Positions 33,349-63,315 of a DNA stretch of 64,000 bases are shown here, one piece after another (position 1 is the first letter of the stretch; the number at the start of each line of letters is the position of its first letter). Location of the stretch: positions 227,503-291,502 of the forward strand of contig CAVQNG010000005.1 in the NCBI GenBank assembly GCA_963713825.1. Direction: 5' to 3'. The position numbers were made by a program, and so were the translations under genes. Below the pieces are notes generated by a model that saw only the letters and a program-made list of their open reading frames with translations, was not told the DNA's origin and did not search any database. The stretch is from an uncultured Acidobacteriota bacterium (lineage in GTDB: Bacteria; Acidobacteriota; Thermoanaerobaculia; Multivoradales; JAHEKO01).

Positions 33349-34025
33349 CGCTACCTGGCGCTCCGAGGGATGAGGCGCCCGGCTCACCGCCGGCCGTTCT
33401 TTGTGGGGTTGGGGTTGAGGCGGCTGTCGCTTGCTCCAGCCCGTCCCTGAGGGCTTGGAGCTGAGAGGCCCGTCCGGGTGGCCCGCCTGGGGGACGGCGT
33501 CGGCTACTCAGACTGCAACGGGCGGGCCGCCACCTTGTCACGTCATCGCGCCGGATCTGGTGTGCTCTTCGACGGCTCTTGCGCTGCGCTCGACGTGGCA
33601 CCCCCTGACGAACCACCCGAACGATCCTCTGGCACCGACTGGCAGTGAGGCAGGCAGAGCAATAGGGGCGTAAGGGCGTAGGGGGCTAGGGCTTGAGCCT
33701 CTGTTCCCCCTAAGCCCTCAAAGACTGGCCGGAAGCAATGCCCGGCCACTTCACCCCCCACTGCCCCAAGGGCCGGCAGGGAGGTGCGACCGGACGCGCC
33801 TCAACCCCAGGCCGGGCGGGTGGGGGCCCAGGGGGTTCTTGCAGCGGTAGGGAGGATAAGCCCCCTGGGGGCCCCACGTCGGACCCCTCAGGATCAGTCT
33901 CTTTGCCCAGGACCCAGGACCCGGGTCCCAAGCCCCAAGGGTCGGCCGGGAGGCACGCGCGGGCGACTCAACCCGCCGTGTCTGAGCTAAACTCTGCAGG
34001 AGCGCGCCGGGGAATAGAGCTTGCC

Positions 34026-44460: not shown

Positions 44461-44707
44461 GATCGGCAGCCGAGCTGGAGCCTTCCGACTCCGGTTGTCG
44501 ACTGCAGCTGGAGCCGAAGTAGAGCGTTGTCAGGGCCATGAGAGCCACCAGTTGGCGCCACATTGACCGCTGTGTTGCCGCGGAGAACATGCTGGGATCG
44601 TAGTGCAGAAAGAAACCTCGGTCCAGCCGCTGGCGCTTGATCGCTGCGAACCGATCCCGTACTCTCCAGCCGAGGCATCCGTTACTGAGTGATCCTGGAA
44701 AGAACCG

Positions 44708-48375: not shown

Positions 48376-48384
48376 TGTCCAGCC

Positions 48385-50013
48385 TCAGTCGGTTGTCGGC
48401 TCGCTCAGCGCCGCCAGGTTCTTGGCGGCGAGCGGATCGTCGGGCTGCAGCATCAGAACCTGCTCCAGGAGGAGCTTGGCCTCTTCGTTCTCGTCTTTGG
48501 CCATCAACAGCACCGCGAGGTCGTTCATGGCAGCGGTGTGCTGCGGTGCCATGGTGATGGTCTTGCGTAGATCTTCCTCGGCCGGGCCACTCAGTCCGAT
48601 GTCGAGCCGAACCACCCCTCGCATGTAGTAGGAATCGGCGATGTCGGGGGCCAGCTGCACTGCGGATTCCGCGACATCCAGGGCTTCCTGGAGGCGGCCC
48701 ATCTCCGACAGCAGTCGCGCTTCGAAAAGCATGGGCCGGGGGTCCCCTGGTGCCAGGATTGCCTCTTGTCGCACAGTTCTCAGAGCGGCCTCGCGGTTGC
48801 CACCGCTCGACAGGTGCATGGCCCAGCGCAATCGAGCCCCGGTGGGGTCGTTGGCCAGCGTGCCCAGCGACAGAGCGGCACCTTCCGGGTCGGTACCTCT
48901 GAGAATCTGGCTGACCTGAAGCGCCGTTCGACTCTCCTCGTCCCGTCCCTCCGCCGCCAGCGCTGCGCTCAACCACTCCCAGGCTTCCGGATTGCTGGGA
49001 TCGACAGCCGTCGCATATTCGAGAGGCGGCAGGGCATCGGAGCTCCGTCCCGCCTGGCTCAGCATCTGGCCGTAGTCCGCGGTGACCTCGGCCGCCAGAA
49101 TCCGGTCGGAGTCCGGTGAGTCTGGTCCGATGCTGGATTGGAGGCTCTCGGCTACCGGTTGCAACGTCTGAATTGCTGCGTCTTGCTGCCCCATCGCGGC
49201 CTGGGCACGGGCTTGAAGTCGTACGAGGTCGGGATCGGTGCCGGCTTTTCCTTCGAGTGCCTGGAGCGCGGATTCAGGCTGACCCACCAAGAGATAGCTC
49301 TCTGCCAGGACACTCAGCACCTGGGGCTCGAGGCCGTCTGGCGGACTTTCCGACAGCGGCTGGATCACGGCGAGAGCACCCCAGCCATCCTCGTTCAGCA
49401 GCCCGACACGACCGCGGAGAATATTGGCGGCCGGCAGATCCAGGGGCAGGGTCATCAGCACGTCTTCGGCATCGGAGGCCCGCCCGAGAGCCACTGCACA
49501 GGAGGTTGCGGCAAGCAGGGCACCGGTATCCTCGGGGTGAAGCCTGCTCCATGGGCGCAGGAGCAGGAAGGCGTCCATCAGGTTGCCTTGGCGCAGCCGG
49601 ACGAATCCCAATTCCCGAGCGGCAGGGCTGACCGGCGTCATCGCTAGCGATCGCTCCAGATATCCCTTCGCCTTGTCGAGATCACCCACTCCAGCCGCCG
49701 CACGTCCGGCGTTGTAAAGCACTGCAGGCTCGGCCTCTGGTGAGTCGGCCAGGGGCGTCAGAATGGTCACGGCATCGGCGGCTCGGTCAGCTTCGAGATA
49801 GAGCGCCCCAAGGGTTTGCGAGACTCGGGAGTCCTTCTCACCCTGGGCAAGGGCCTCTTCCAGCTCGGTGATCGCTGGGTCGAGCTCACCCGATTCGAGA
49901 TGTTTCAACACCCGATTGAGAGTCTCGTCGGCCGCGGTCGGTTCCTGCTGGCCAGCCGCGGCAAGCGGTAGAAGAACAAGCAGTAGCAGTGAGAGGTGGA
50001 TCGAATGTCTCAT
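48385..50013 (-). CDS. secreted TPR-repeat protein
   Basis: Signal peptide MRHSIHLSLLLLVLLPLAAAGQQ. TPRs throughout; 542 aa. Confidence 0.75.
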   Translation of the reverse strand: MRHSIHLSLLLLVLLPLAAAGQQEPTAADETLNRVLKHLESGELDPAITELEEALAQGEKDSRVSQTLGALYLEADRAADAVTILTPLADSPEAEPAVLYNAGRAAAGVGDLDKAKGYLERSLAMTPVSPAARELGFVRLRQGNLMDAFLLLRPWSRLHPEDTGALLAATSCAVALGRASDAEDVLMTLPLDLPAANILRGRVGLLNEDGWGALAVIQPLSESPPDGLEPQVLSVLAESYLLVGQPESALQALEGKAGTDPDLVRLQARAQAAMGQQDAAIQTLQPVAESLQSSIGPDSPDSDRILAAEVTADYGQMLSQAGRSSDALPPLEYATAVDPSNPEAWEWLSAALAAEGRDEESRTALQVSQILRGTDPEGAALSLGTLANDPTGARLRWAMHLSSGGNREAALRTVRQEAILAPGDPRPMLFEARLLSEMGRLQEALDVAESAVQLAPDIADSYYMRGVVRLDIGLSGPAEEDLRKTITMAPQHTAAMNDLAVLLMAKDENEEAKLLLEQVLMLQPDDPLAAKNLAALSEPTTD

Positions 50014-50191
50014 AGTCGTCTCGATTCTGGTTGGGAAGGGTCACCCGTTCGCGCCAGGCAATACGGGTTAGAATTACGGTCGGAGCGGAAGTATGGACCG
50101 AACTGCTCGCACGATTGAGCGGTCAAGGAGTTCTTTTAGCCGCACTTCCCACAGTATATACAAGTGTCGACAACCTCCAGGAAGCTCGAAG

Positions 50192-51358
50192 ATGACCAGG
50201 AATCTCTTGCATGGATCGGCCCCAGGGTCCGCCCTGGCTTCTGGCAATAGACCTCGACGGCTCCTCGTCCCATTTCTGGCAGGCGTGCTGGTGGCGCCAT
50301 TGTTCGGGCCGGCCATAGCTTCGACTCAGGCAGCAGCCTCGTCCGATGCCCAGAGCTCGATGCAAGCGGAGCTCGAGGTACGTCGGCGCTTGATGGCGCA
50401 TCCCGAGCAGCCGGAGATCTATCTCGAACTGGCGGATCTGCAGGTCTCCCGAGGGGCTGAGGAGGAGGCGTTGGCGACGCTGGTGAGCAGTAGCAACCGT
50501 TTCCTGGGCGCGGACGAGCCCAAGAAGGCGGTCCTGGTGCTGAACAAAGCCGCCGAAATGCGTCCGGACGATGCCGAGCTGCAGTTTCTCCTGGGCAAGG
50601 CCCACACTCAGAATCGTGACTTCGAAGCCGCCGAGGCGCCGCTGCGTCGGTCCATCGAGCTGGGCTCGGAGGACCCCTCGGTCCTGGTCTATCTCGGTGC
50701 CATCCTCTGGGAGAGTGGCCGCATGGCGGAAGCCGAGCCGGTCTACCGGCAAGCGATCGAAGCCACGGACCGAGCCTTCATGCCACTGTCACAGTTGGGC
50801 CGGCTGCTCCTATGGCAAGGCCAGTTCGAAGATGCAGCACAGTTGCTGCAGGAGGCGGCCCAGAAGAACCCCCGAGATGTGGGCACGCTCTTCGATCTAG
50901 CCGAGGCTCTGCGAGGCTCGAACCAGGCCGAAGAGGCCATTGCTACTTATCGCCGCGTGGTTCTTCTCGCTCCCAAGCTGAACAAGGCGCACTACGGACT
51001 GGCGATGTTGCTGGCCCGTCAGGGCGATCGTGAGGGCAGCAAAGCGGAGTTCGAGATCTACAACCAGCTCATTCTTGCCGCAGAGGAAGGCAACCGGATG
51101 GCCGAGATCGAAGAAGGTGAGGTCGATCGGGCCGGATTGATGCTGCGACAGGGACAAGTCGAGGCGGCCATCGCCCATCTCGAGAGTCTCGAAGAGACTG
51201 TCGAAGTGGATCTGGCGAAAGCACAGGCCTACCGGGCCGCAGGCAGGCTGGACGATGCGGTGGAGAGCCTGCAGCGCGCCGTTGCCTTCGATCCCAGCCG
51301 TCAGGATGTGCGCCAGATGTTGGCCAGCATTCGCATGGAAATGGCCCAGGGCCAATGA
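50192..51358 (+). CDS. secreted TPR-repeat protein
   Basis: Signal peptide, then TPRs (LGKAHTQNRDFEAAEAPLRRSIELGSEDP...). The ORF opens at 50093. The stop overlaps the start of the downstream CRTAC1 gene (ATGA). Confidence 0.75.
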   Translation: MTRNLLHGSAPGSALASGNRPRRLLVPFLAGVLVAPLFGPAIASTQAAASSDAQSSMQAELEVRRRLMAHPEQPEIYLELADLQVSRGAEEEALATLVSSSNRFLGADEPKKAVLVLNKAAEMRPDDAELQFLLGKAHTQNRDFEAAEAPLRRSIELGSEDPSVLVYLGAILWESGRMAEAEPVYRQAIEATDRAFMPLSQLGRLLLWQGQFEDAAQLLQEAAQKNPRDVGTLFDLAEALRGSNQAEEAIATYRRVVLLAPKLNKAHYGLAMLLARQGDREGSKAEFEIYNQLILAAEEGNRMAEIEEGEVDRAGLMLRQGQVEAAIAHLESLEETVEVDLAKAQAYRAAGRLDDAVESLQRAVAFDPSRQDVRQMLASIRMEMAQGQ

Positions 51359-53040
51359 GAAAGCCGACCTCCAGGCGCCCTTGGTCGTGGCTCGGCCTGA
51401 CCTTGGCTGGTCTGCTGCTCGGCTCGGCGGTGACGGCCGTCGCCCAACAGGACTCGTGCCGTGGGACCGCGATGGCCGAGGCGGCAGAGGACGTCGGCAT
51501 CCACTTCGTGCACGCTCGGGGCGAGACGGGGAACTTCTACAACCCCGAGACGATGGGCTCCGGACTAGCCTGGTTCGACTACGACGGTGATGGTTGGTTG
51601 GACTGCTATCTCGTCCAGTCGGGCCCCTTTCCTCCGACCGCGGAGGGCAGCGACGCGGCCACCAACCAGATGTTTCGCAACACCGGCGACGGGCGCTTCG
51701 AGAACGTCACTGGGCGCACGGGCTCCGGCGAGCGGAGCTATGGACAGGGAGTCCTCGGTGCCGACTTCGACGGTGATCGGATGCCGGATATCTTCCTCGC
51801 CAACTGGGGCGTCGATCGCTTGCTGATGAATCGTGGTGATGGGACTTTCGAAGACCGCACGGCCGAGTCGGGTGTGGATGTCGAGGGCGCCAACGGTTGG
51901 AGCTCCGGTGCGGCTCTCGGCGACGCCGATCGGGACGGCGATCTGGATCTCTATCTGGTGATCTATGTGGAGCACGATCCCGAGCACGAGCCCTTTTGCC
52001 TCCACCCCTCGACAGGTGAGCGTTGGTACTGTGGTCCGTCACCATTCGAGCCCAAGATGGACATCTTCTTCCGCAACCAGGGTGGTGCGGTGTTCAAGGA
52101 CGAGACTCTGGAGGCGGGCTTCGAGACTGCCAACGGCAAGGGGCTGGGTGTGCTGTTCGTCGATCTCAATGGCGACAACTGGCCCGATGTCTACGTTGCC
52201 AACGACATGACCTTCAACCTTCTGTTCGTCAACAAAGGTGATGGAACCTTCGAGGACCTGTCGTTGATGTCGGGGGTGGCGGTGAGCCGTGACGGGATGC
52301 CCGAGGCGGGAATGGGAGTGGCGATCGGCGATGTGGATGGCGACGGTGATGCCGACATGGCGGTGGCCAACTTCGACGTCCAGACCAACACCCTCTACAC
52401 CAATCAGGGGGACCTCTTCTTCGAAGATACCTCCGCTGCCAGCGGTTTCGGCGCCGCTTCGTTCAACTACGTCGGGTTCGGCCTCGTCATGGCCGACTTC
52501 AACCGTGACGGCCATATGGACTTCTTCAACGGTACCGGGCACACCGTCGAGATCTCGCCACGCGCCAACGTCTTCTACGAGCAGCCGGATGTCCTGCTGC
52601 TCGGCGACGGCAAAGGAAATTTCGCCGAGCCCGACTGCCCGCTGCCGAATAAGCTCCCCTCGGTCTCGCGTGGCGTGGCCTACGCCGACTATGACAACGA
52701 CGGCGACCCGGACATCGGAATCCAACGCAGCGGCCGGGCCTTTTCCCTGCTTCGCAACGACACGCAGGCCGGCAGCTGGCTGGGTCTGCGTCTGTGGAGT
52801 AACACGGCCAACAGCGAAGGTGTTGGCGCGGTGGCAACACTCACAACGAGCCAGGGCGTTCAGAAACGCTGGGTGATCGCCGGCAGCAGCTACCAGTCCT
52901 CGTCGGACATCCGCGTCCTCTTCGGCTTCGACGAGAAGGCGGAGATTCACGAAGTCGAGATCCTCTGGCAATCCGGTAAGGTGCAGCGGATTCTTCAACC
53001 TCCTCTCGAGAGTTATCTCACGGTGCGGGAGCCCCTGTGA
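51355..53040 (+). CDS. CRTAC1-family protein (FG-GAP plus ASPIC/UnbV), paralog 2
   Basis: Signal peptide; FG-GAP repeats (FDYDGDGWLDCYL, ADFDGDRMPDIFLANWG, GDADRDGDLDLYLV, ...); C-terminal UnbV/ASPIC domain (SWLGLRLWS...EVEILWQSGKVQR). Confidence 0.85.
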   Translation: MRKPTSRRPWSWLGLTLAGLLLGSAVTAVAQQDSCRGTAMAEAAEDVGIHFVHARGETGNFYNPETMGSGLAWFDYDGDGWLDCYLVQSGPFPPTAEGSDAATNQMFRNTGDGRFENVTGRTGSGERSYGQGVLGADFDGDRMPDIFLANWGVDRLLMNRGDGTFEDRTAESGVDVEGANGWSSGAALGDADRDGDLDLYLVIYVEHDPEHEPFCLHPSTGERWYCGPSPFEPKMDIFFRNQGGAVFKDETLEAGFETANGKGLGVLFVDLNGDNWPDVYVANDMTFNLLFVNKGDGTFEDLSLMSGVAVSRDGMPEAGMGVAIGDVDGDGDADMAVANFDVQTNTLYTNQGDLFFEDTSAASGFGAASFNYVGFGLVMADFNRDGHMDFFNGTGHTVEISPRANVFYEQPDVLLLGDGKGNFAEPDCPLPNKLPSVSRGVAYADYDNDGDPDIGIQRSGRAFSLLRNDTQAGSWLGLRLWSNTANSEGVGAVATLTTSQGVQKRWVIAGSSYQSSSDIRVLFGFDEKAEIHEVEILWQSGKVQRILQPPLESYLTVREPL

Positions 53041-53049
53041 GTCGTGGGA

Positions 53050-55059
53050 ATGACCATGCATAGACGAATCGAAATCTCATTCACCAATCGAGCTGGTTTG
53101 CTGGCTCTCGCTGTCCTGGGGCTCGCCTTGGGCCTGACGTCGTCCGCTGCCGCTCAGCTACCCGATCTGTTGCCGATACCAGATGTCGAGCTCACCGAAG
53201 ACGTGGAATCCGGTGTGCAGGAGGTCTTTCCGCAACTGCGTCAGGCGATCGATCAGCTGGAGGCGAACAGTGGCACGACCGCGTCTCAGCTTGCCGAGGC
53301 CTATGGTGAGCTGGGTCGCGCGGCCCTCTACTATGAGACATCGGCGGTGATCGAGCCGGCGCTGAAGAATGCGCAGCGACTGGATCCCGAGGACTCCCGT
53401 TGGCCCTACTATCTGGGTGCCTACTACCAGGATCAGCGGCGACTCGAAGAGGCCACGGATCAGCTGGTGATAGCACATCAGCTGCAACCAGACAACGCGG
53501 CGATCAATGTACGCCTCGGGCAGCTGGCCTTGCTGTCGGATCGGCCGGAGCAGGCGCCAGAGTACTTCGAGAAGGCGACGGGCAGCGACGGTTTCGCGGC
53601 CCTGGCGCTGTATGGTCTGGGGCGGAGCGCCGGTCTGCGGGGTGACGACGCGGCCGCCCTGGAGCTCTACAAAGCGGCCCTGGAGCTGCAGCCTGAAGCG
53701 GCCGAGATCCATCAACAGATGGGACTCGCCTATCGCAAGCTGGGTGACATGGACGCGGCGCGGGAGCACCTGTCAAAGCAGGCTTCGGGCAGCCTCTCTT
53801 TCCCGGACCCCTTGATGGACTCGTTGAAAAGCGATTTTTCGCGCAGTCATCTCTTTGCCGGTCTCGAGGCCCAATCCACAGGTCGTTGGGAGGCGGCCGT
53901 TGCCGAGTACCGCAAGGCGGTGAATGAGGATCCGACCAATGGTGTCAACCACCAGATTCTGGCCGACGCTCTGGAGAAGAGTGGCGATCTGGATTCAGCC
54001 ATCGAAGAGTTTCGGCTGGCTGCCTCCTTGCTGCCGAGTGATGGGATGGTCCGTGTGCAGCTGGCGAAGGCTCTGGTCACTAGAGATGGCGTCAGCGACG
54101 AGGCGATCGATATGTTCCGTCGAGCGGTCGAACTGACTCCGGGCCTCGTGGAGGCGAGAAGGGGACTGGCATCCGTTCTGCTGCACCAGCAACGCTACGA
54201 GGAGGCGCTCGAGCACCTCGATGCGACCCTCGAGATCGATTCGACTGATCCTGGAGCCAGATTGATGCGCGCTCGAGCCCTGGCTGCAGTGGGCAGAGAG
54301 ACCGAGGCCAAGTTGGACCTCGAGTCGATCGTCGCGGCACAACCGGAAGCGCTCGAAGCGACACTCGACTTAGCAGCGCTCGAGGCCCGTCAAGGCAAGT
54401 TCGGTGCCGCCATCACGAGGCTCGAAGGCCTCCTCGTAAGCGCCGACGACGACAACTCGAGAGCGATTCTGAATTTCGAGATCGGCGGGCTGAAGCAACT
54501 GGCCGGCGATGACGAGGCAGCGCTCCAATACTACGAGGCGGCAATCGAACAAGCGCCTGAGCTCAGGGACGCTCAGTTCAACCGGGCCGTCTCGCTGGGC
54601 CGACTCGGCAGGCAGGCAGAGGCGGAAGAGCAGCTGCGGCAGGTCCTCGAGATCGACCCGCAGGATGAGAAGAGCTACCTCGCATTGGCACAGACCTTGG
54701 CAGGCCGCGGGCAGTTCGCGGATTCTCGGCAAGTCCTACAGGATGGACTGGATGAGGTCGTGGAGAGCAAGCTGCTCATGGCTGCCATGGTGCAGTTGCT
54801 GCTCGCCAGCCCCGATCCGGAGACCCGTGACGCGGCGGCCGCGGTACCCTTGGCCACCCGACTGCACGAGATCGACCCGTCGGTCCAGAACGGTGCCATG
54901 GTCGCGGCGGCCCTCGGCGCGTCTGGCCGCTCTGCAGAGGCGGCGGAGTGGCAGGCCAGAGTTCTGCGCCAGGCCGAAGCGGCTGGTTGGCCCCAGGAAC
55001 AGCTGCAGCGCATGCGATCCGACCTGGCGCTGTACCGGCAGCGGGCCGGGGGAGGCTGA
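53050..55059 (+). CDS. secreted TPR-repeat protein
   Basis: Signal peptide; at least 12 TPRs; about 670 aa. The stop (TGA) shares its last base with the ATG of the downstream CRTAC1 gene (TGATG). Confidence 0.75.
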   Translation: MTMHRRIEISFTNRAGLLALAVLGLALGLTSSAAAQLPDLLPIPDVELTEDVESGVQEVFPQLRQAIDQLEANSGTTASQLAEAYGELGRAALYYETSAVIEPALKNAQRLDPEDSRWPYYLGAYYQDQRRLEEATDQLVIAHQLQPDNAAINVRLGQLALLSDRPEQAPEYFEKATGSDGFAALALYGLGRSAGLRGDDAAALELYKAALELQPEAAEIHQQMGLAYRKLGDMDAAREHLSKQASGSLSFPDPLMDSLKSDFSRSHLFAGLEAQSTGRWEAAVAEYRKAVNEDPTNGVNHQILADALEKSGDLDSAIEEFRLAASLLPSDGMVRVQLAKALVTRDGVSDEAIDMFRRAVELTPGLVEARRGLASVLLHQQRYEEALEHLDATLEIDSTDPGARLMRARALAAVGRETEAKLDLESIVAAQPEALEATLDLAALEARQGKFGAAITRLEGLLVSADDDNSRAILNFEIGGLKQLAGDDEAALQYYEAAIEQAPELRDAQFNRAVSLGRLGRQAEAEEQLRQVLEIDPQDEKSYLALAQTLAGRGQFADSRQVLQDGLDEVVESKLLMAAMVQLLLASPDPETRDAAAAVPLATRLHEIDPSVQNGAMVAAALGASGRSAEAAEWQARVLRQAEAAGWPQEQLQRMRSDLALYRQRAGGG

Positions 55060-56867
55060 TGAGCCCGCAGAGAGGCGCTCGGGAGGTGTCGACCTGGCGC
55101 ATTGCCATCAGGCGTTGGCGCCTGCTGAGACTCACCCTGCTCGCCTGTTTCGCCTTGGTGCCTCTGGAGCATCTTCACGCCCAGACTCCGTCACCGGACG
55201 ATTCGACAGGAGATGCGAGTCCCGGTTTCATCTTCTCGGATGCAAGTCTTCCTGCCGGGTTTGATTTTCACCTGTTCAACGGTGCGTCGGGCGAGATCTA
55301 CTTCCTCGAGATCATGGGTTCGGGGGGCGGATTGATCGACTTCGACGCCGATGGGGATCTCGATCTCTACGCGGTGCAGGGCACGATGCTGGCGCCGGGC
55401 AAAGGCGTCGAAGACGCCGAGATTCCCCCGCAGCATCCAATCCCCTTGACCGACCGGCTGTATCGCAATGACCTGGAGGTCGATCCCCAGGGGCGTCGGT
55501 CGCTGCACTTCACCGACGTGACGGAGAAAGCGGGCCTGACTCGATCCGAGTACGGCTTTGGTGTGGCGACCGGGGACTACGACAACGATGGCTGGACCGA
55601 CCTCTATGTGACGAACTTCGGCTCGAATCAGCTGCTTCGCAACAATGGGGACGGCACGTTCGCCGATGTCACCGAGGTTTCGGGAAGCGATGACAAGGGT
55701 TGGAGTGTCAGCGCCAGCTTTGTGGACTTCGATCGCGATGGGTGGCTGGATCTCTACGTCACGAACTATGTGGACTTCAGCGTCGAAAAGCGGCGCCACT
55801 GCCTGAACCCGATGGGCGCCGCCGACTACTGCGATCCGGATGCCTATCCTTCGGGTGATGATCGTTTGTTTCGCAATCGCGGCGATGGAACTTTCGAGGA
55901 TGTCTCGATCCAGGCCGGCATCCGAGTCGAGCCGAGGACAGGCCTGGGTGTCGCTTCGGCCGACTTCGACCTCGATGGCTGGCCCGATCTCTACGTCGCC
56001 AACGACGGCATGTCCAATCTGCTGTTCATGAACAATCGGGACGGCACCTTTCGTGACGACACCCTGCTGGCCGGTTGTGCGGTCAACTCGGAAGGCCAGC
56101 GAGAGGCTTCCATGGGCATCGATGTCGCCGATGTGGACAACGATGGCGACGAAGACATCTTTCTGACCCACTACGCGCGGGAGACCAATACTCTCTACAT
56201 CAACGACGGCACAGCGATGTTCGACGATGTGACGCAAGTCAGCGGCCTGGCGACACCGAGCTGGAATTTCACCAGCTTCGGGACCCACCTTTTCGACTAC
56301 GACAACGACGGTCTGCTCGACATCATGACGGTGAGCGGCGCCGTGACGATCTTCTCCAATGGCAGTCGGGAGAACCTGGCGCAGAGGAATCAACTGTTTC
56401 GCAACCTCGATGGCAGGCATTTCGAAGACATGAGCGACCAGGCAAGCGAAGCCTTCCTCCTGGAGGAGGTGAGCCGGGGCGCGGCCTTCGGCGACATCGA
56501 CAACGATGGGGACACCGACGTCGTGGTCTTCAACAACTCGGAGCCCTCCCGCCTGCTGGTCAACCAGGTTGGCTCCGATCGTCAATGGCTGGGACTTCGA
56601 CTGGTGGGGAAGGGCACGCCCCGCGACATGCAAGGGGCCTGGGTAGAGCTCAGGCAGCCGCCTGGGCCGACGCTATGGCGCCGCGTTCATACCGATGGCA
56701 GCTACGCCTCGGCGAGCGACCCTCGACTGCTCTTCGGGCTGGCCGACCGGACTTCGCCGGGCACGGCGCGAGTCTCCTGGCCGAGCGGTCTGGTCGAGGA
56801 GTTCACCGATCTGCCGGTGGGGCAGTACACGGAGTTGAAGGAAGGCACCGGTCGAGCCCTGGAGTAG
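55059..56867 (+). CDS. CRTAC1-family protein (FG-GAP plus ASPIC/UnbV), paralog 3
   Basis: Signal peptide. About 65% aa identity to paralog 1 over the propeller (GDYDNDGWTDLYVTNFGSNQLLRNNGDGTF...). C-terminal ASPIC/UnbV domain. The ORF opens at 54948 inside the upstream gene; ATG 55059 is the likely start. Confidence 0.85.
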   Translation: MSPQRGAREVSTWRIAIRRWRLLRLTLLACFALVPLEHLHAQTPSPDDSTGDASPGFIFSDASLPAGFDFHLFNGASGEIYFLEIMGSGGGLIDFDADGDLDLYAVQGTMLAPGKGVEDAEIPPQHPIPLTDRLYRNDLEVDPQGRRSLHFTDVTEKAGLTRSEYGFGVATGDYDNDGWTDLYVTNFGSNQLLRNNGDGTFADVTEVSGSDDKGWSVSASFVDFDRDGWLDLYVTNYVDFSVEKRRHCLNPMGAADYCDPDAYPSGDDRLFRNRGDGTFEDVSIQAGIRVEPRTGLGVASADFDLDGWPDLYVANDGMSNLLFMNNRDGTFRDDTLLAGCAVNSEGQREASMGIDVADVDNDGDEDIFLTHYARETNTLYINDGTAMFDDVTQVSGLATPSWNFTSFGTHLFDYDNDGLLDIMTVSGAVTIFSNGSRENLAQRNQLFRNLDGRHFEDMSDQASEAFLLEEVSRGAAFGDIDNDGDTDVVVFNNSEPSRLLVNQVGSDRQWLGLRLVGKGTPRDMQGAWVELRQPPGPTLWRRVHTDGSYASASDPRLLFGLADRTSPGTARVSWPSGLVEEFTDLPVGQYTELKEGTGRALE

Positions 56868-56905: not shown

Positions 56906-59116
56906 TCAACCCAGCTCGCGAAGAGCTGGGTCCTGCGGCCAACGGCGAAGAGCATCCTGTAACACGCTGTTGGCGACTGCCGGTTGACCGATACGGCGGA
57001 GGGTCTGGACGGCCTTGGCATGGGCCACCGCGGTGGGATTCTCCTCGACCATTCGTTGGAGGCTGGCTCGAGCCTGTTGCGAGTCGCCCTGCATGGTGTA
57101 GACCACGGCAAGACTGGTGAAGGCGTCCAGCTCTGTAGGGAACAGATCGGTCTCCTTGGCGTAGGCCTCGGTGGCCTTGTCGAGCTCTTCGAGTCGGGCG
57201 AAGCAGCTGCCTCGTAGGTAGTACGCACCACGAATCGACGGCCAGTCGGTCCGGTCACCGAACTCCGAGAGAAGCTCATCGGTGAGGTCCAGCGCCTCCC
57301 TGAAGCGGTTCTGGCTGAAGCGCAGCTCGGCGGCAGTGAGGAGTGGCCCCAGCCGGGAGCCACGGCGGGCTAGAGCCTCCTCGACGATCGGCGCAGCACT
57401 GCCCAGGTCACCCTGGCGAATTCGAATCTGGGCCAGCACGTCGCGACTCTGCTCGTGACCGTCGACCGCCAGCTCGGCGTACTGCGCTGCCTCGTCGAGT
57501 CGCCCCAGACCGAGGAGCGCGGAAGCCATCGCGCCTGCTACCGGCGGAGAACCTCCTGATAGCTCCATGGCTCGTTCGAAGGCTTCGAGAGCCGCCTGTG
57601 TCTGTCCCATCGCCATACGCGCGTGGCCGAGCTGCTCCCAGGCATCGATCAGCTGCGGTTGTTTGTCGGCCACTGCCTGGAAGGCCTCCGCGGCCGCTTC
57701 GTAGCTACCCTGGGCGTAGGCCTCGAATGCGACCTTCAGCTCTTCGACGGTTGCCAGCTGGCTCTTGGGGTCGGCGAGATCGCCGCTGTCGCTGCCGACG
57801 GTCGACCCCAGATACCCCAGAGCGGCCAGCCGGGCGCGAGTTTCGGCATCTTCCTCGGAAGGGGGAGCGAAACTCTGCTCGTAGGCGTCGAGATGCTGGC
57901 GCATCCTGCCGAGAGCACGGCGGTCGTCACGCAGGATGTTGTTGGTTTCTCCCGGATCCTGGTCGAGATGGTAGAGCTCCGGGTCGGGTCCCTGAATGTA
58001 GTGGTAGGGCGGGTCGACAACCGAGAAGAGCTCGCTCCACCCGAAGTGAAACCGCGGGAAGAAGGTCTCGGAGTAGATGGGGCGAGGCTCTCCCTCATCC
58101 TCGCCGGCCAGCAGAGATCGGCCAGGCAGGTCTTGGGGAATGTCGATGTCGAGTAGAGCCGCGATTGTCGGGACGACGTCGATGAGGCCGACGGCCCGCT
58201 CGACCGTGGTTCCACCCTTGTCCGCAGAAGGCAATTTGAGAAGAAGCGGGATCTGCAGGGACTCTCGATAGAGCAACAGGCCATGCTCGTAGTCGCCATG
58301 GTCGTACAGCCCCTCGCCGTGGTCGGAGGTAAGGATGATGATGGACGAGTCGTAGATGTCGAGCTTTTGGAGCTCATCGAGGAGCGCGCCGATCACCGCG
58401 TCGGCGGCCGCCACCTCGCCATCGTAGGCCGACTCGTAGCGTGAGGCGAAGGGCTCCGGAGGATCATGGGGAGCATGAGGCTCATAGATGTGAAAGAAGA
58501 AGAAGAAGGGCTCGCCGGCCACCGATTGAAGCCAGTCTCGCGCCGCAGCGAGGGTGTCGTGGCCGTCGCGCTGGACGTCGCTGAGCAGCGTCTTGGCGCC
58601 GATCACCAGGTGGTCGTCGTAGAAGTCGAATCCGGCATCGAGACCCGCCGTGGCTCGCAGAACGAAGGCCGACACTGCAGCACCCGTGCGGTAGCCGAGC
58701 TTCTCGAGCATCCTGGGAAGGTATGGCAGGCCTTCGGTCCTGAGGCGGTAGCCGGCATTGTCGCGCACTCCGTGCTCGGGCGGGTAGAGGCCCGTGAGCA
58801 TGGAAACGTGTGCCGGCAGGGTAAGGGGTACTTGTGTATAGGCCTGGCGAAAGAGGATCGAGTCGGCCCTCAGGCGGTCGATCGCCGGCGTCGCGACCCG
58901 ATCGTAGCCGTAGGCGGGGAGCCGGTCGGAGCGCAGGGTATCAATCGAGATCAGGATAACGGGGGTGCCCGATGCAGCCGACGGCCCTGCCGCCTGCCGG
59001 TCGCAGGAGAGAAGGCTGAGCCCCAACAGCGCGAGCCAACAAACAACCAGCCCGCGCTCGGTGATCGAGCGCAGGGCCGGAAGGGAACGACTTCGAACGG
59101 TTTTCGTGGTGGCCAA
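56906..59116 (-). CDS. sulfatase-like (alkaline phosphatase superfamily) lipoprotein plus TPR fusion, paralog 3 (intact)
   Basis: Lipobox LLSCDR. PVILISIDTLRSDRLP, VPLTLPAHVSMLTGLYPPEHGVRDN, FFFFFHIYEPH, LTSDHGEGL, then a C-terminal TPR array of about 330 aa. 736 aa. Confidence 0.85.
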   Translation of the reverse strand: MATTKTVRSRSLPALRSITERGLVVCWLALLGLSLLSCDRQAAGPSAASGTPVILISIDTLRSDRLPAYGYDRVATPAIDRLRADSILFRQAYTQVPLTLPAHVSMLTGLYPPEHGVRDNAGYRLRTEGLPYLPRMLEKLGYRTGAAVSAFVLRATAGLDAGFDFYDDHLVIGAKTLLSDVQRDGHDTLAAARDWLQSVAGEPFFFFFHIYEPHAPHDPPEPFASRYESAYDGEVAAADAVIGALLDELQKLDIYDSSIIILTSDHGEGLYDHGDYEHGLLLYRESLQIPLLLKLPSADKGGTTVERAVGLIDVVPTIAALLDIDIPQDLPGRSLLAGEDEGEPRPIYSETFFPRFHFGWSELFSVVDPPYHYIQGPDPELYHLDQDPGETNNILRDDRRALGRMRQHLDAYEQSFAPPSEEDAETRARLAALGYLGSTVGSDSGDLADPKSQLATVEELKVAFEAYAQGSYEAAAEAFQAVADKQPQLIDAWEQLGHARMAMGQTQAALEAFERAMELSGGSPPVAGAMASALLGLGRLDEAAQYAELAVDGHEQSRDVLAQIRIRQGDLGSAAPIVEEALARRGSRLGPLLTAAELRFSQNRFREALDLTDELLSEFGDRTDWPSIRGAYYLRGSCFARLEELDKATEAYAKETDLFPTELDAFTSLAVVYTMQGDSQQARASLQRMVEENPTAVAHAKAVQTLRRIGQPAVANSVLQDALRRWPQDPALRELG

Positions 59117-59148: not shown

Positions 59149-60093
59149 CTATTCACCCTGCTGCAGATACTCCAGGAAGTCCCTGGCCTCGGTCGCGCGT
59201 GGCGTGTCGGGAGCGAGCTCGATGAGCTTCTCGAAATCGGCCGCTGCGGCATCGTTCTCACCCTTGTTGAGCAGCACCAGACCTCGGTAGTAGTAGGCGG
59301 CCGCGAGGTCGGGGAAGTTCCCGACGACTCTCTCGAACTCCACCAGCGCCTCGTCCAGATTACCGTCGTTGTAGAGATCGATGCCGACGTTCAAATAGGC
59401 ATCGGCGTCGAGTAGCTCGCCTTCCGGGAGCTGATCCATGAAGACTTTTGCCTCGTCTGGGCGCCCCTGTGCCACCAACATGCTGCTCAGGAGCTTCAGA
59501 GCATCGATGTTGTCGGGCTCGATCTCCACGATCCGCCTCAGGGTTGCTTCGGCCTGTTCCAGGTTGTCTTCCTGGTAGTAGGTGCGGGCGATGCCCATCA
59601 GCACGGGAGGGTGATTCTCCACGTCGAGCTCGGCCAGCGCGTTCTCATACTCGGCCCGAGCCTCGGTGGTCTTGCCTTCCTGCAGGAGCTGATTCCCTTG
59701 TTCGAGGAGCTCCACCGACAACTCGGCTGCGGCCTCGGCCAGCACTTCCGGCGGGATGGGTCGCAGAGTGACATTGACGGTGGCGGATCTACCGAACTCA
59801 TTCGCCCCCACTGTTCCCTCTGAAGGGACATAGCCCGGAAACTCGATGCTGACGGTCCACATGCCGTTGGTCAGCCCAAGAAAACTCCACTTGCCCTTCG
59901 CGTTGGTGAAGAAGGGCTCGGGCCCCTCGCCGGCCCGGATGAGAGTGATCCTGGCGCCTTCGATGGGTTCGCCGTTTTCGTCCTTTACGGTGCCTTGTAA
60001 GCGGCCTCGCCCGGCCCAGCCCTGTGCCAGCACAGGGGTTGCCGCGACAGCCAGAAGTAGAGCTATCACTACCAGGGTTGCAACGTGTCGCAT
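59149..60093 (-). CDS. secreted carboxypeptidase-regulatory-like domain plus TPR protein
   Basis: Signal peptide MRHVATLVVIALLLAVAATPVLAQG. A CarbopepD_reg-like beta domain (GRLQGTVKDENGEPIEGARITLIRAG...GKWSFLGLTNGMWTVSIEFPGY) is followed by TPRs. The ORF opens at 60219. Confidence 0.7.
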   Translation of the reverse strand: MRHVATLVVIALLLAVAATPVLAQGWAGRGRLQGTVKDENGEPIEGARITLIRAGEGPEPFFTNAKGKWSFLGLTNGMWTVSIEFPGYVPSEGTVGANEFGRSATVNVTLRPIPPEVLAEAAAELSVELLEQGNQLLQEGKTTEARAEYENALAELDVENHPPVLMGIARTYYQEDNLEQAEATLRRIVEIEPDNIDALKLLSSMLVAQGRPDEAKVFMDQLPEGELLDADAYLNVGIDLYNDGNLDEALVEFERVVGNFPDLAAAYYYRGLVLLNKGENDAAAADFEKLIELAPDTPRATEARDFLEYLQQGE

Positions 60094-60185
60094 GCTGATC
60101 TCCTCATGGAATGTGGGCCGACGATCTGCCTCCAGCGGGGGGAGTGCCGCCGGCCAAAGACGGGCCGAGTTTAGCAGAAAAAAAA

Positions 60186-60208
60186 GCCGGGGGCTCGAGG
60201 CCCCCGGC
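60186..60208 (-). terminator. rho-independent terminator downstream of the TonB-dependent receptor gene
   Basis: On the minus strand: a 9-bp GC stem GCCGGGGGC / GCCCCCGGC with loop CUCGA, followed by U8. It lies 30 nt after the stop of the 60238-63315 gene. Confidence 0.6.
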
Positions 60209-60237
60209 GGGAAAAACAAGTGCTGCAGTACTAGGAC

Positions 60238-63200
60238 TTACCGCCAGTTCAAGCGGACACCGAGTCGGAAGACCCGAGGTGCCAGCGAGGTACTGATCCA
60301 CCCCACGTTGCTGGAGGTGGTGTTGCGGAAGCGATCCAGTACGACACCGTCGTTGAAGATATTGAAGGCATCGATCGAGAAGGTCAGGCCGAGGTTACCC
60401 GTCGTCCTGAACTCTTTTTCGAGCCGCATATCCATGGAGAACAGATCCTCCATTCGGTAGTCGTCGATGCTCGGAGCACCCTGAATCGACCGTGAAATTC
60501 CGTCCAGGCCGGTTCTGTTCCGGTAGTACGGAATCGGATAGCCCTGACGGCCGGTCATGTTGGCGGCGACGTTGAAGCCCCACGGGCGATCCGGCGCCAC
60601 CTGGTACATGCCATTCAAGTTCCAACCCCATTCGGACTGCAGCCAGGACTCGTTGCGGCCGGAACCAGTCGACTGAATGACATAGGTCGAGCCGTCGATC
60701 ACGGCACCAGCAGCCACGCCAGGCAGCACGCGGTTGGGATCGTTGTTGTTGAAGTAGCTCGTCGGCACACTCCAGGTCTCGTCGAAGTTGTACTGGACGT
60801 AACCACGCATCATCCACTGGTTCGCCAGTCGCTTCGTGAAGCCGATGGTGCCACCGAGGTAGTCGATCTCACGGTCACCGTTGGTGAACAGCTGACCACC
60901 CGTGTAGTTCCATTTCGACGGATCCGCCGAAAAGGTGTTATACGAGTAGGTCCCCGCAGGTCCACCAATGCCCGGAATCGTGATGTCGAGTTGGGTCGGG
61001 TCCGTGATGTACTCACTGGCCGGAATCGTCTGCGGTGTCGCGTTGTCGTTGCCGACAGGTGTGAACAGCCGCTGGAAGTCCTGTACATCCGTGACCTTAC
61101 GCCAGGTGAGAGTACCGCTGACCACGAACTCAGGCAGGAAGGCATGCTCGGCACCAAGGATCAACTCGTTGGTGAGCGGTGCATCCATGCCCGGGTCGTT
61201 CTTGTTGGATGACGACAGGGCTGTCGGGTCATTGGGGTTGAAGCCCCAGTATCCCGCCGCTACCTCGTACTGCTCGCCGTCATCGTAGAAGCCCGGGAAA
61301 CCACCCGGATCGTCGACGAAGACGATGTACGCTAGTTGCGCGGACAAGGGACTCGTGCGGCTGATATTGCCCAGCGACATGACATCCGGGAACTGCGAGA
61401 AGCTACCGCGCAGCAGCGTTTTGCGCTCCTCACCGAGGGCGTAAGTAACACCCAGGCGGGGAGTGATGCTCGACCAATTGAGCCCGTCGGCGTCGTTACC
61501 GGCGAAGTCGATGGCAGGCATTTCATTCGGGAAGCCGATGTTGGCATCCACGACACCAGCCGTGTTCTCACCGGACTGGTCGTCCCAACGGAAGCCGACG
61601 TTGAATGTCCATGAGCCCATCGTCATCGTGTCCTGGACCCACAACGAATCGTAATTCGTGATGTTAGGTACGGGACCCTGACGGTAGGCGTAGACCGCAG
61701 CGTAGTCGTCCGCACGGTTCACAGGCAGTCCAAGCGAGGCACCCAGAGCGACATCGCCCGCCACGCCGGCATAGGTGCCGTCGTAGTGGAAGATGTTCCG
61801 GCCGGGGTACGACCAGGCACTCTCGGTGGAAGCTTCACGCGTCCGGCCACCGAACTTGAGCTCGTGGTTCAAGTTCGACGTGGTGAAGAAGTAGGAGCCG
61901 TCGATCTTGATCTCCTCGGTCGGACGGCTGTTGCCGCCGGAAGCGTTGTTGGTCGTGAAACCGTTGCCGTCGGTGTACTTCTCACCGCCGGGGAACGGAT
62001 TTGCAGCGTTGCCCGAACCGGCACCACCCTGCGCCGTCAGCGAGAAACCGCCATCGACAAAGGAGTACTGACCGGTCAGGAAGAGGTTCGAGCCGAAGAC
62101 GTGCGTGTCCTCGATCTTGGTGATCCCCGTCGGACCACGCTGGTTCCAGGTCGCCGAGGGGTCGCTGTCCGGCGACGCGCCACGGCCGATCTTCCGTTTG
62201 TCACCGTTGTTGAAGGAGGCGACGAACGAGTTGGCCGCGGTGAACTGGGCGTTCAACTTGATCGCGGTGCCTTCGAGGATCGTGCGGTCGGACTGGCCAC
62301 CACCGGTGATCCGGTTGATGTCGTTCTGACCCCACGAAGCCCACAGCCAGACGCGATCCCGCCACGCCGGACCACCAGCCTCGAAGCCGAATTCCTGGAT
62401 ACGATCCACCGTGTCACCTTGATAGTTCGTCTGGCCCGGTCCGAGATCGCTCTGGCTGAAGCCAGGATCAGCGGCTTCGAGCGCGCCGAAGTAACCACCA
62501 GCGTCGGTCAGCAGGAAGCGGGCCGTGCCGCGGAACTCGTTGGTACCACGCTTGGTCACCATGTTGACCGAGACACCGGCTGCGCCCTTGCTTACATCGG
62601 GACCACCGGTTGCCAGCTGAATCTCGGAGAACTGGTCGAAATCGTAGTAGGTCGGTGAGGAGCCGATGGCGGACATGTCCGTGATCTGGACACCGTCGAC
62701 AAGAAAGTCGTTCTCGTCGCCGTTGTTGGCCTGGCCACGGAAGACGGCCTGCTGGCCGCTCTCGTTACCACCGACGTTGATGCGGTCGGTCATGACACCG
62801 GGAGCCTGCTGCACGATGGCCCACGGGTCACGCGCGCTCGGAATGCTCTCGAGCTCGACCTGACTGATCGTGGTACCGGCAGTGAGCTTGCGCTCATCCA
62901 ACAGCGGGCTCTCGGAAGTCACCGTGATCACCTCACCAATGGCAGCACTGAGCTGCACCTGGATCGTGGTGCTCTTACCGACTCTGACGCTGACGTTCGG
63001 GTACTCAACGGTGGAGAAACCGTCCAGGGTGGCCTTCAGGCTGTAATTGCCTGGGGCCAGACCGAGGAAACGTGTTTCACCCTGTGCGTTGGTAATCCCG
63101 AGTCTGGGCGCTCCGCCACCCACCATTTCAACATTGACGCCTGGCAGAGTTTGTCCTGCGGTGTCGGTGACCTGAACATAAATGTTCCCGGTCTCCTCCT

Positions 63201-63315
63201 GCGCTACTGCCATGGTGCTCAGCAGGAGCGCAACACCGAAGACAACGTACTTTCGCCACATGCTTCGGTTCATACGAAAAACCTCCTTGGTCATTCGTGT
63301 TTGGAGCTTTCGCAC
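60238..63315 (-). CDS. TonB-dependent receptor-like outer membrane protein with an N-terminal CarbopepD_reg domain
   Basis: Signal peptide. N-terminal carboxypeptidase-regulatory-like domain (GNIYVQVTDTAGQTLPGVNVEMVGG...LAPGNYSLKATLDGFST), a plug-like region, and a beta-barrel of about 750 aa. 1025 aa. Confidence 0.8.
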   Translation of the reverse strand: MRKLQTRMTKEVFRMNRSMWRKYVVFGVALLLSTMAVAQEETGNIYVQVTDTAGQTLPGVNVEMVGGGAPRLGITNAQGETRFLGLAPGNYSLKATLDGFSTVEYPNVSVRVGKSTTIQVQLSAAIGEVITVTSESPLLDERKLTAGTTISQVELESIPSARDPWAIVQQAPGVMTDRINVGGNESGQQAVFRGQANNGDENDFLVDGVQITDMSAIGSSPTYYDFDQFSEIQLATGGPDVSKGAAGVSVNMVTKRGTNEFRGTARFLLTDAGGYFGALEAADPGFSQSDLGPGQTNYQGDTVDRIQEFGFEAGGPAWRDRVWLWASWGQNDINRITGGGQSDRTILEGTAIKLNAQFTAANSFVASFNNGDKRKIGRGASPDSDPSATWNQRGPTGITKIEDTHVFGSNLFLTGQYSFVDGGFSLTAQGGAGSGNAANPFPGGEKYTDGNGFTTNNASGGNSRPTEEIKIDGSYFFTTSNLNHELKFGGRTREASTESAWSYPGRNIFHYDGTYAGVAGDVALGASLGLPVNRADDYAAVYAYRQGPVPNITNYDSLWVQDTMTMGSWTFNVGFRWDDQSGENTAGVVDANIGFPNEMPAIDFAGNDADGLNWSSITPRLGVTYALGEERKTLLRGSFSQFPDVMSLGNISRTSPLSAQLAYIVFVDDPGGFPGFYDDGEQYEVAAGYWGFNPNDPTALSSSNKNDPGMDAPLTNELILGAEHAFLPEFVVSGTLTWRKVTDVQDFQRLFTPVGNDNATPQTIPASEYITDPTQLDITIPGIGGPAGTYSYNTFSADPSKWNYTGGQLFTNGDREIDYLGGTIGFTKRLANQWMMRGYVQYNFDETWSVPTSYFNNNDPNRVLPGVAAGAVIDGSTYVIQSTGSGRNESWLQSEWGWNLNGMYQVAPDRPWGFNVAANMTGRQGYPIPYYRNRTGLDGISRSIQGAPSIDDYRMEDLFSMDMRLEKEFRTTGNLGLTFSIDAFNIFNDGVVLDRFRNTTSSNVGWISTSLAPRVFRLGVRLNWR

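What the first reader, a model, noticed from the sequence alone, without database searches (positions are those of the whole stretch)
56906..59116. The sulfatase-like domains lack the formylglycine motif: Thr and His replace Cys/Ser and Arg
In all three paralogs the position that aligns with the sulfatase C/S-x-P-x-R active-site motif reads T-L-P-[SA]-H (PLTLPAHVS, PLTLPSHAS, PITLPSHAS). The following LTG...HGVRDN box and the downstream DHGE metal-site box are conserved.

A Thr nucleophile with no Arg is characteristic of the alkaline-phosphatase-superfamily phosphoryl-transferases such as LtaS, EptA/MCR and MdoB, not of formylglycine sulfatases. These proteins are therefore probably not true sulfatases. 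A transferase or hydrolase acting on phospho- or sulfo-esters of an envelope polymer is more likely. Fusion of this domain to a long C-terminal TPR array is unusual.
Basis: seen in the sequence. Interest (0 to 1): 0.7.

Follow-up and report, generated by a model that had tools for sequence, protein, structure and literature searches.

The report
Threonine-type sulfatase-like lipoproteins with TPR tails
Three genes labelled "sulfatase" by domain searches keep the sulfatase fold but carry the active-site residues of phosphate-ester enzymes. They belong to a very large, uncharacterised family in Acidobacteriota that is often misnamed arylsulfatase or choline-sulfatase.

Summary
All three paralogs have T-L-P-[SA]-H where formylglycine sulfatases have C/S-x-P-x-R, and alignment to solved sulfatases puts Thr on the formylglycine Cys and His on the Arg. 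Among 388 homologs, 362 of 363 recognisable motifs read T..H, and none has Cys or Ser.

Four further changes point the same way. The sulfate-binding G-K-W-H box is [VI]-S-x-[FYW]. The Lys 13 residues after the DHG Asp is His. An H-x4-H-x-P box has the spacing seen in E. coli EptA. DHGE is kept. This residue set matches EptA/MCR-1, including the Zn1 ligands and the His395/His478 pair.

The TPR fusion is the rule in this family, not an oddity. The gene usually lies downstream of a TonB-dependent-receptor-like gene.

Best reading: a metal-dependent, Thr-nucleophile phosphoester hydrolase tied to an outer-membrane uptake locus. This is inferred, not shown.

Two of the three copies carry frameshifts.

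The parts
56906..59116 (-). Paralog A: sulfatase-like/TPR lipoprotein gene. The ORF runs from the first possible start, and the true start is uncertain. The stop codon is 56906..56908.
   Evidence: 85% identical over 687 aa to P0001/P0002.
59003..59116 (-). Signal peptide ending in a lipobox (LLSC, Cys38).
   Evidence: The syntenic ortholog L083 has an in-frame 'LALAAGAVSC' upstream of its mis-called start.
57790..58990 (-). Catalytic domain of the alkaline-phosphatase superfamily on an S1-sulfatase scaffold, including the SGSH_C subdomain.
58931..58951 (-). ISIDTLR. Asp59 is the first metal ligand. Thr60 replaces the second Asp of the sulfatase D-D pair.
   Evidence: It aligns with EptA 'GETSR'.
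58802..58828 (-). PLTLPAHVS. Thr99 is the predicted nucleophile and sits at the formylglycine position. His103 sits at the Arg position.
58757..58798 (-). LTGLYPPEHGVRDN. Asn120 lies 21 residues after the nucleophile.
58664..58696 (-). GYRTGAAVSAF. This replaces the S1 signature G-Y-x-T-x3-G-K-W-H, so the sulfate-binding Lys and His are lost (Ser149 and Phe151 in their place).
58469..58492 (-). HIYEPHAP (His209, His214). An H-x4-H-x-P box with the same spacing as E. coli EptA 'HTIGSHGP'.
58280..58324 (-). DHGEGLYDHGDYEHG. Asp265 and His266 are metal ligands. Glu268 and His278 (D+13) correspond to MCR-1 Glu468 and His478. Sulfatases have Lys at D+13.
56909..57769 (-). C-terminal TPR solenoid of about 17 helices.
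   Evidence: Pfam TPR families. Full-length AF2 model: pLDDT 91.5, pTM 0.86, helices from residue 413 to 698.
33738..36229 (+). Paralog B, in two ORFs (33738..34562 and 34589..36229). A 1-nt frameshift at the G6 run 34527..34532 splits it. Motifs present: PLTLPSHAS, HLYEPHLP, DHGE...EHG, and the lipobox LFGC at 34095..34106.
41866..44650 (-). Paralog C. The catalytic and TPR ORF is 41866..44460. The lipoprotein signal (ATG 44590, 'LYFGSSC') is in another frame. The frame change lies between 44430 and 44453.
59149..60219 (-). Upstream operon partner: a CarboxypepD_reg domain plus TPR protein.
   Evidence: A full-length homolog sits directly upstream of the sulfatase-like gene in 9 related loci and in L083.
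60238..63315 (-). Upstream operon partner: a TonB-dependent-receptor-like outer-membrane protein (CarboxypepD_reg + Plug + beta-barrel).
   Evidence: Present in 44 of 79 related loci. In 28 of the 30 loci where its C-terminal end could be placed, it is on the same strand and upstream. The same order is seen in L083 and L085.

Best explanation
Each paralog encodes an exported lipoprotein. Its N-terminal ~400 residues form an alkaline-phosphatase-superfamily domain with the architecture of an S1 (formylglycine) sulfatase, but the catalytic residues have been switched to the phosphoryl-transfer type.

Proposed mechanism (paralog A numbering):
- Thr99 is the nucleophile and sits on a divalent metal held by Asp59, Asp265 and His266.
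- His214 and His278 (the latter oriented by Glu268), possibly with His209 and His103, form a second metal-binding or phosphate-binding site.
- Thr99 attacks a phosphate ester, most likely a diester or phosphonate monoester, to form a phospho-Thr intermediate. Water then resolves it.

The protein has only a lipid anchor and no membrane domain. Its gene usually follows a TonB-dependent-receptor-like gene. I therefore read it as a hydrolase that processes a phosphorylated substrate at the outer membrane or in the periplasm for uptake, with the TPR solenoid docking it to a partner protein or to the substrate.

Shown here: the residue pattern, its conservation, the fold, the lipobox and the synteny. 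Inferred: the metals, the chemistry, hydrolase rather than transferase, the substrate class and the role of the TPR.
For: - Thr aligns on the formylglycine Cys and His on the Arg.
- Across 388 homologs: T..H in 362 of 363 recognisable motifs; H-x4-H-x-P in 376 of 388; His at D+13 in all 349 cases where DHGE could be matched; [VI]-S-x-[FYW] instead of G-K-W-H.
- These residues are invariant or nearly so in the alignments.
- E. coli EptA shows the same H-x4-H-x-P and DHGE-x9-H-G spacing.
- In MCR-1 the matching residues are the Zn1 ligands Glu246/Thr285/Asp465/His466 and the Zn2/phosphate residues His395/His478, with Glu468 (PMC5216409).
- Canonical sulfatases use Cys, Arg, Lys, His, His and a Lys at D+13, for example EfAS C61/R65/K110/H112/H220/K324 (PMC12421950). 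The S1 signatures are given in PMC5066984.
- Lipobox present in A, B, C and L083, and in 122 of 226 homologs that start with Met.
- A TBDR-like gene lies upstream on the same strand in 28 of 30 placed cases.
- Confident models: pLDDT 90.8 and 91.5.
Against: - No member has been assayed, and no metal or substrate is known.
- The overall fold and sequence are closest to true sulfatases and phosphonate monoester hydrolases, which are promiscuous, so some sulfatase activity cannot be ruled out.
- I could not inspect model coordinates. The clustering of His209, His214 and His278 around Thr99 rests on sequence spacing and homology alone.
- TBDR-like genes are very common in Acidobacteriota. Only A sits in such an operon in this window; B and C do not.
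- In one related locus a PMT_2 (GT-C) glycosyltransferase gene lies directly upstream, which would fit envelope modification.
- Two of the three copies here are frameshifted.
Confidence: 0.5

Rival explanations
1. It is a phospho-substituent transferase that decorates an envelope or exopolysaccharide polymer, as LtaS, EptA, OpgB and BcsG do.
For: The active-site residue set matches EptA/MCR-1. A PMT_2/GT-C glycosyltransferase gene lies directly upstream in L084. The TPR arrays give sub-threshold hits to the PEP-CTERM exopolysaccharide-system protein PrsT (TIGR02917, 126 bits against a cutoff of 312).
Confidence: 0.2
2. It is a non-catalytic scaffold or binding protein (a pseudoenzyme). The alkaline-phosphatase-like domain only binds a ligand and the TPR organises an outer-membrane complex.
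Against: The nucleophile, all putative metal ligands and the His pair are nearly invariant over hundreds of sequences at 40-60% identity. That is the pattern expected of an active enzyme.
Confidence: 0.1
3. It is a genuine sulfatase that uses Thr, or a modified Thr, in place of formylglycine.
For: The best Pfam, NCBIfam, PDB sequence and fold matches are all S1 sulfatases. The SGSH_C subdomain is present.
Against: The Arg and both Lys residues and one of the two His residues of the S1 active site are replaced; His214 is kept. Oxidising Thr would give a ketone, not formylglycine, and no formylglycine generation from Thr has been reported (PMC5066984). All NCBIfam sulfatase scores are far below their cutoffs.
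Confidence: 0.05

Closest known systems
S1 formylglycine sulfatases and phosphonate monoester hydrolases (SulfAtlas S1; e.g. 7ebp, 6hhm, BT1918 7oz8, PsS1_NC 6pt4, RlPMH 2vqr)
   Different: Cys/Ser is replaced by Thr, Arg by His, the G-K-W-H box by [VI]-S-x-[FYW], the Lys at D+13 by His, and the second Asp of the D-D pair by Thr. A TPR array and a lipoprotein anchor are added.
Phosphoethanolamine transferases EptA/LptA, EptC and MCR-1
   Same: Thr nucleophile. [E/D]-T-x-R first ligand box. H-x4-H-x-P. S-D-H-G-E with His at D+13. This is the full Zn1 and His395/His478 residue pattern.
LtaS/LtaP, VP1736 (3lxq) and YejM/PbgA periplasmic domains
   Different: As I recall, all are tethered by N-terminal multi-pass membrane domains. 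Sequence similarity is marginal. E. coli OpgB scores 5.6 bits against the family profile.
Nucleotide pyrophosphatase/phosphodiesterases (PF01663; Xac NPP, ENPPs, PafA, PhoK)
   Same: Thr nucleophile. The N-terminal boxes look similar (x-S-x-D-x-x-R and T-x-P-x-H...T-G-x-x-P-x-x-H-G). The Pfam Phosphodiest hit is above threshold (62 bits). The Thr-to-Asn spacing of +21 matches NPP as I recall it from memory.

Membership tests
S1 formylglycine-dependent sulfatases | (C/S)-x-(P/A)-x-R motif with a modifiable Cys or Ser and the Arg | tested here: not met
   T-L-P-[SA]-H in all three paralogs and in 362 of 363 homolog motifs. Motif definition from PMC5066984.
S1 formylglycine-dependent sulfatases | G-Y-x-[TSCV]-x3-G-K-...-[W..]-[H..] signature (Lys113/His115, PAS numbering) | tested here: not met
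   GYRTGAAVSAF in A. The family consensus is [VI]-S-x-[FYW], never G-K.
S1 formylglycine-dependent sulfatases | Lys about 13 residues after the D-[NH]-G Asp (Lys375 in PAS; K324 in EfAS) | tested here: not met
   His in all 349 homologs where DHGE could be matched. EfAS D311/K324.
S1 formylglycine-dependent sulfatases | Two-subdomain sulfatase fold with the metal ligands Asp (N-terminal) and D-[NH]-G | tested here: met
S1 formylglycine-dependent sulfatases | A maturation enzyme (FGE or anSME) in the genome | not testable with these tools
   Only 64 kb is available. A crude motif scan of the window found no radical-SAM CxxxCxxC motif and no FGE-like motif in any plausible ORF.
Phosphoethanolamine/phosphoglycerol transferases (EptA/MCR, LtaS, OpgB) | N-terminal multi-pass membrane domain | tested here: not met
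   Only a signal peptide with a lipobox precedes the catalytic domain.
Phosphoethanolamine/phosphoglycerol transferases (EptA/MCR, LtaS, OpgB) | Thr nucleophile with acidic/Asp/His metal ligands, plus the conserved His pair and Glu (MCR-1 E246, T285, H395, D465, H466, E468, H478) | tested here: met
   D59, T99, H214, D265, H266, E268 and H278, with the same spacings as E. coli EptA. Asp stands in place of Glu at the first ligand. The 3-D clustering of these residues was not inspected.
Phosphoethanolamine/phosphoglycerol transferases (EptA/MCR, LtaS, OpgB) | Closest overall sequence or fold relationship | tested here: not met
NPP / type I phosphodiesterase (PF01663) | Pfam gathering score reached, and this is the best-scoring family | tested here: inconclusive
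   62 bits against a cutoff of 23, but PF00884 scores 145 bits on the same region.
NPP / type I phosphodiesterase (PF01663) | Bimetallo site with three Asp and three His ligands | tested here: inconclusive
   D59, D265, H266, H214 and H278 are present. No conserved D-x3-H pair was found. No coordinates were available.
Alkaline phosphatase superfamily | Alpha/beta core with a nucleophile on a metal site formed by N-terminal Asp/Glu and C-terminal Asp-His | tested here: met

The most novel reading that the evidence does not exclude
The enzyme-TPR lipoprotein is the substrate-processing, SusD-like partner of a SusC-like (CarboxypepD_reg-Plug-barrel) TonB-dependent transporter. Its TPR solenoid docks on the transporter or on the co-encoded CarboxypepD_reg-TPR protein, and the Thr-type domain cleaves phosphodiester-linked material at the cell surface. 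This would be an undescribed acidobacterial system for harvesting organic phosphorus or phosphorylated polymers. It would be built on a sulfatase scaffold that switched from formylglycine to Thr chemistry.
Probability: 0.15. Interest if true: 0.75.

Novelty: new variant of a known kind. Interest (0 to 1): 0.45.

Why it matters
1. Annotation. Thousands of these proteins are named 'arylsulfatase A-like enzyme' or 'choline-sulfatase' in public sources. Sulfatase counts, and any inferred use of sulfated glycans, in Thermoanaerobaculia and other Acidobacteriota are probably inflated.

2. Enzyme evolution. The family is a natural hybrid: an S1-sulfatase scaffold carrying an EptA/MCR-like Thr and His-pair active site. 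It offers a test case for how the nucleophile and the charge-binding residues were exchanged within the alkaline phosphatase superfamily.

3. Physiology. The recurrent link to TonB-dependent-receptor-like genes gives a testable hypothesis for nutrient acquisition in an abundant but poorly cultured phylum.

Tried and rejected
- Overall LtaS/EptA-like domain: rejected, because fold and profile scores rank S1 sulfatases first.
- 'TPR fusion is unusual': rejected.
- The Mn-dependent arylsulfatase (NCBIfam NF052527) as a possible non-formylglycine precedent: the paper shows it uses Cys61/formylglycine.
- Alkaline phosphatase PhoY (NF051873): only a 15-bit hit, and the one paper found is unrelated.
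- CRTAC1-like (FG-GAP/UnbV_ASPIC) genes as the conserved partner: present in only 10 of 79 loci, so this is a subset association.
- Literature searches for this clade (sulfatase + TPR + Acidobacteria + TonB; threonine-nucleophile terms) returned nothing specific.
- Technical dead ends: the afdb50 fold library was unavailable, pHNSHP45 (mcr-1) was not in the plasmid collection, and P0289 was not on record.
- I could not read model coordinates, so active-site geometry was not checked.
- The FGE/anSME motif scan of the window was negative but is weak evidence.

Full report
**What is there**

The flagged ORF (56906..59116, minus strand, 736 aa) encodes three parts:
- a basic N-terminus and hydrophobic stretch ending in a lipobox (LLSC, Cys38);
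- a ~400-aa domain that matches Pfam Sulfatase PF00884 (145 bits), the sulfatase C-terminal subdomain SGSH_C, and more weakly Phosphodiest PF01663 (62 bits);
- a C-terminal TPR array.

There are two paralogs. C is 41866..44460 (minus strand, 864 aa). B is on the plus strand and split into 33738..34562 and 34589..36229. All three carry the reported motifs: PLTLPAHVS, PLTLPSHAS and PITLPSHAS; L[TS]G...HGVR[DN]N; and DHGE.

**Is the Thr really at the nucleophile position?**

Yes. phmmer alignment to solved S1 sulfatases places the query Thr on Cys84 of PsS1_NC (6pt4, 'LCSPSR'; Ser in the C84S mutant 6pt6) and the His on the Arg. The same holds for BT1918 (7oz8).

The substitution is a family trait. 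Among 388 homologs collected in three searches, 362 of 363 recognisable motifs read T-x-P-x-H. One reads T..Y, and none has Cys or Ser.

**What else changed**

I used the S1 signatures of Barbeyron et al. (PMC5066984) and the residue roles in a recent S1 structure (EfAS C61/R65/K110/H112/H220/D311/H312/K324; PMC12421950) as the reference. The family differs from them as follows:
- It retains the first metal Asp (Asp59), the P-H-x-P His (His214) and the D-H-G pair (Asp265, His266).
- The second Asp of the D-D pair is Thr60.
- The G-K-W-H box is V-S-A-F (family consensus [VI]-S-x-[FYW]).
- The Lys 13 residues after the DHG Asp is His278. This holds in all 349 homologs where DHGE could be matched.
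- A family-specific invariant His209 creates an H-x4-H-x-P box (376 of 388 homologs).

E. coli EptA, taken from NC_000913, shows the same H-x4-H-x-P box (VLHTIGSHGP) and the same SDHGE-x9-HG. The family profile aligns His278 to the EptA 'LHG' His.

In MCR-1 these positions are the Zn1 ligands Glu246/Thr285/Asp465/His466 and the Zn2/phosphate-contacting pair His395/His478, with Glu468 orienting His478 (PMC5216409).

The active-site residue set is therefore of the phosphoryl-transfer type. The cationic sulfate-binding residues are gone.

**But the scaffold is a sulfatase scaffold**

An AlphaFold2 model of the catalytic domain is confident (pLDDT 90.8, pTM 0.91).
- Foldseek against the PDB returns only S1 sulfatases and phosphonate monoester hydrolases in the top 50 (TM about 0.75).
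- The family HMM scores E. coli AslA at 52.7 bits, EptA at 31.0 and OpgB at 5.6.
- NCBIfam hits to arylsulfatase, choline-sulfatase and PehA are the best but lie far below their cutoffs.

The family is thus a hybrid: S1 architecture with Thr/His-pair chemistry. No solved structure in the top lists represents it.

**How common, and where**

An exhaustive search of 1.84 billion cluster representatives gives 20,304 hits at E<=1e-30. That total includes true sulfatases. The top 150 are all at E<1e-104 and are typically 650-750 aa long, which means they carry the TPR fusion.

Two family-specific peptide patterns found at least 588 loci in GTDB species representatives. These are almost all Thermoanaerobaculia, Holophagae or other Acidobacteriota MAGs. 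The subfamily of paralog C extends to Bryobacteraceae and Vicinamibacteria.

Source names include 'sulfatase-like hydrolase/transferase' (NCBI), but also 'arylsulfatase A-like enzyme' and 'choline-sulfatase' (JGI).

The TPR fusion is the norm for this family, not an oddity. That PF00884 contains Thr-type non-sulfatases is already noted in the literature (PMC5066984). I found no paper on this particular clade.

**Context**

In the window, paralog A is the last gene of a same-strand run:
- a TonB-dependent-receptor-like outer-membrane protein (60238..63315; CarboxypepD_reg + Plug + barrel);
- a CarboxypepD_reg-TPR protein (59149..60219);
- paralog A.

The 85%-identical ortholog on a 514-kb contig has the same order.

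Across 79 related loci:
- A homolog of the receptor is present in 44, and in 29 of the 38 long loci.
- Where its C-terminal end could be placed, it lies on the same strand and upstream in 28 of 30 cases.
- Nine loci also keep the CarboxypepD_reg-TPR gene directly upstream.
- Forty-seven loci contain two to four copies of the catalytic domain. One example is a receptor gene followed by three tandem copies.
- CRTAC1-like (FG-GAP + UnbV_ASPIC) and TPR genes, which fill 44.7-56.9 kb of the window, accompany the family in only about 13% of loci.
- One locus has a PMT_2 glycosyltransferase gene directly upstream.

**Mechanism proposed**

This is inferred, not shown.
- Thr99 is activated on a divalent metal held by Asp59, Asp265 and His266.
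- His214 and His278 (with Glu268) bind a second metal or the phosphoryl group.
- A phospho-Thr intermediate forms and is hydrolysed.

The protein has only a lipid anchor, where PEtN transferases such as EptA and MCR-1 and, to my knowledge, LtaS and OpgB have a membrane domain. Its nearest structural relatives are soluble hydrolases, and it sits in receptor operons. For these reasons I favour a hydrolase acting on phosphodiester or phosphonate substrates destined for uptake over an envelope-decorating transferase.

The full-length model is confident overall (pLDDT 91.5, pTM 0.86, about 17 TPR helices). This hints at a fixed domain arrangement, but I could not inspect the coordinates.

**Verdict**

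- Observation: confirmed.
- 'Not a true sulfatase': well supported.
- 'Like LtaS/EptA': true for the catalytic residues, false for the scaffold and membrane topology.
- 'Unusual fusion': wrong.
- Substrate and biological role: open.

I rate this a new variant of a known kind, namely an alkaline-phosphatase-superfamily Thr enzyme on an S1 scaffold. Interest is moderate.

Noticed in passing
window 34527..34532: Paralog B is split by a single-base frameshift at a run of six G. Homolog P0124 aligns residues 1-148 in frame +3 up to 34532 and residues 148-713 in frame +2 from 34529. This is either a homopolymer sequencing error or a very recent pseudogene.
   Followed up: partly
window 44430..44650: Paralog C's lipoprotein signal peptide (ATG 44590, 'MFSAATQRSMWRQLVALMALTTLYFGSSC') is in a different frame from the catalytic ORF that starts at 44460. 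The ortholog P0269 is in frame throughout. It aligns residues 1-63 to 44650..44453 in frame -1 and residues 71-600 in frame -2. So two of the three paralogs are frameshifted, while the long housekeeping ORFs I looked at by eye in the ORF list (which look like secDF, spoT, pilQ, accC, ccmF and proS) appear intact.
   Followed up: partly
window 44708..56867: A repeated module of CRTAC1-like proteins (FG-GAP_3 repeats + UnbV_ASPIC; 44708..46441, 51355..53040, about 55200..56867), each followed or flanked by long TPR proteins (46438..48375, 48385..50013, 50093..51358, 53044..55059). Their function in bacteria is unknown. Similar mixtures recur next to sulfatase-like/TPR genes in L083, L084 and L086.
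   Followed up: partly
L083 9824..10060, and protein P0001: The public gene call for the closest ortholog starts at 'MGTPVILISIDT' and so lacks a signal peptide. The in-frame upstream sequence encodes 'LRTLPALRSSIERGLVFCLLLALAAGAVSC', a lipoprotein signal. Start codons in this family are often mis-called, which hides the lipoprotein nature.
   Followed up: yes
proteins P0121, P0122, P0123 (1317-1549 aa): Some family members contain two complete Thr-type catalytic domains in one polypeptide (two matched stretches each).
   Followed up: no
L084 6250..7986: A PMT_2 (GT-C, ArnT/PMT-like) glycosyltransferase gene ends 15 bp before a sulfatase-like/TPR gene on the same strand. This is the one context clue that favours envelope glycoconjugate modification.
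   Followed up: no
window 54948..55059: The longest ORF of the third CRTAC1-like gene (start 54948) overlaps the end of the preceding TPR gene (53044..55059) by about 110 nt. Its N-terminal ~80 residues are Arg/Pro/Ala-rich and look non-coding. The real start is probably near 55130-55200, before the hydrophobic segment 'LLRLTLLACFALVPL'.
   Followed up: no
window 33738..34100: The first ~120 residues of the paralog B ORF (from ATG 33738) are Pro/Gly/Arg-rich and look non-coding. The likely start is just before 'KRLIPDRHTLLGVSLAAAVLLGLFGC' (lipobox at 34095..34106).
   Followed up: no
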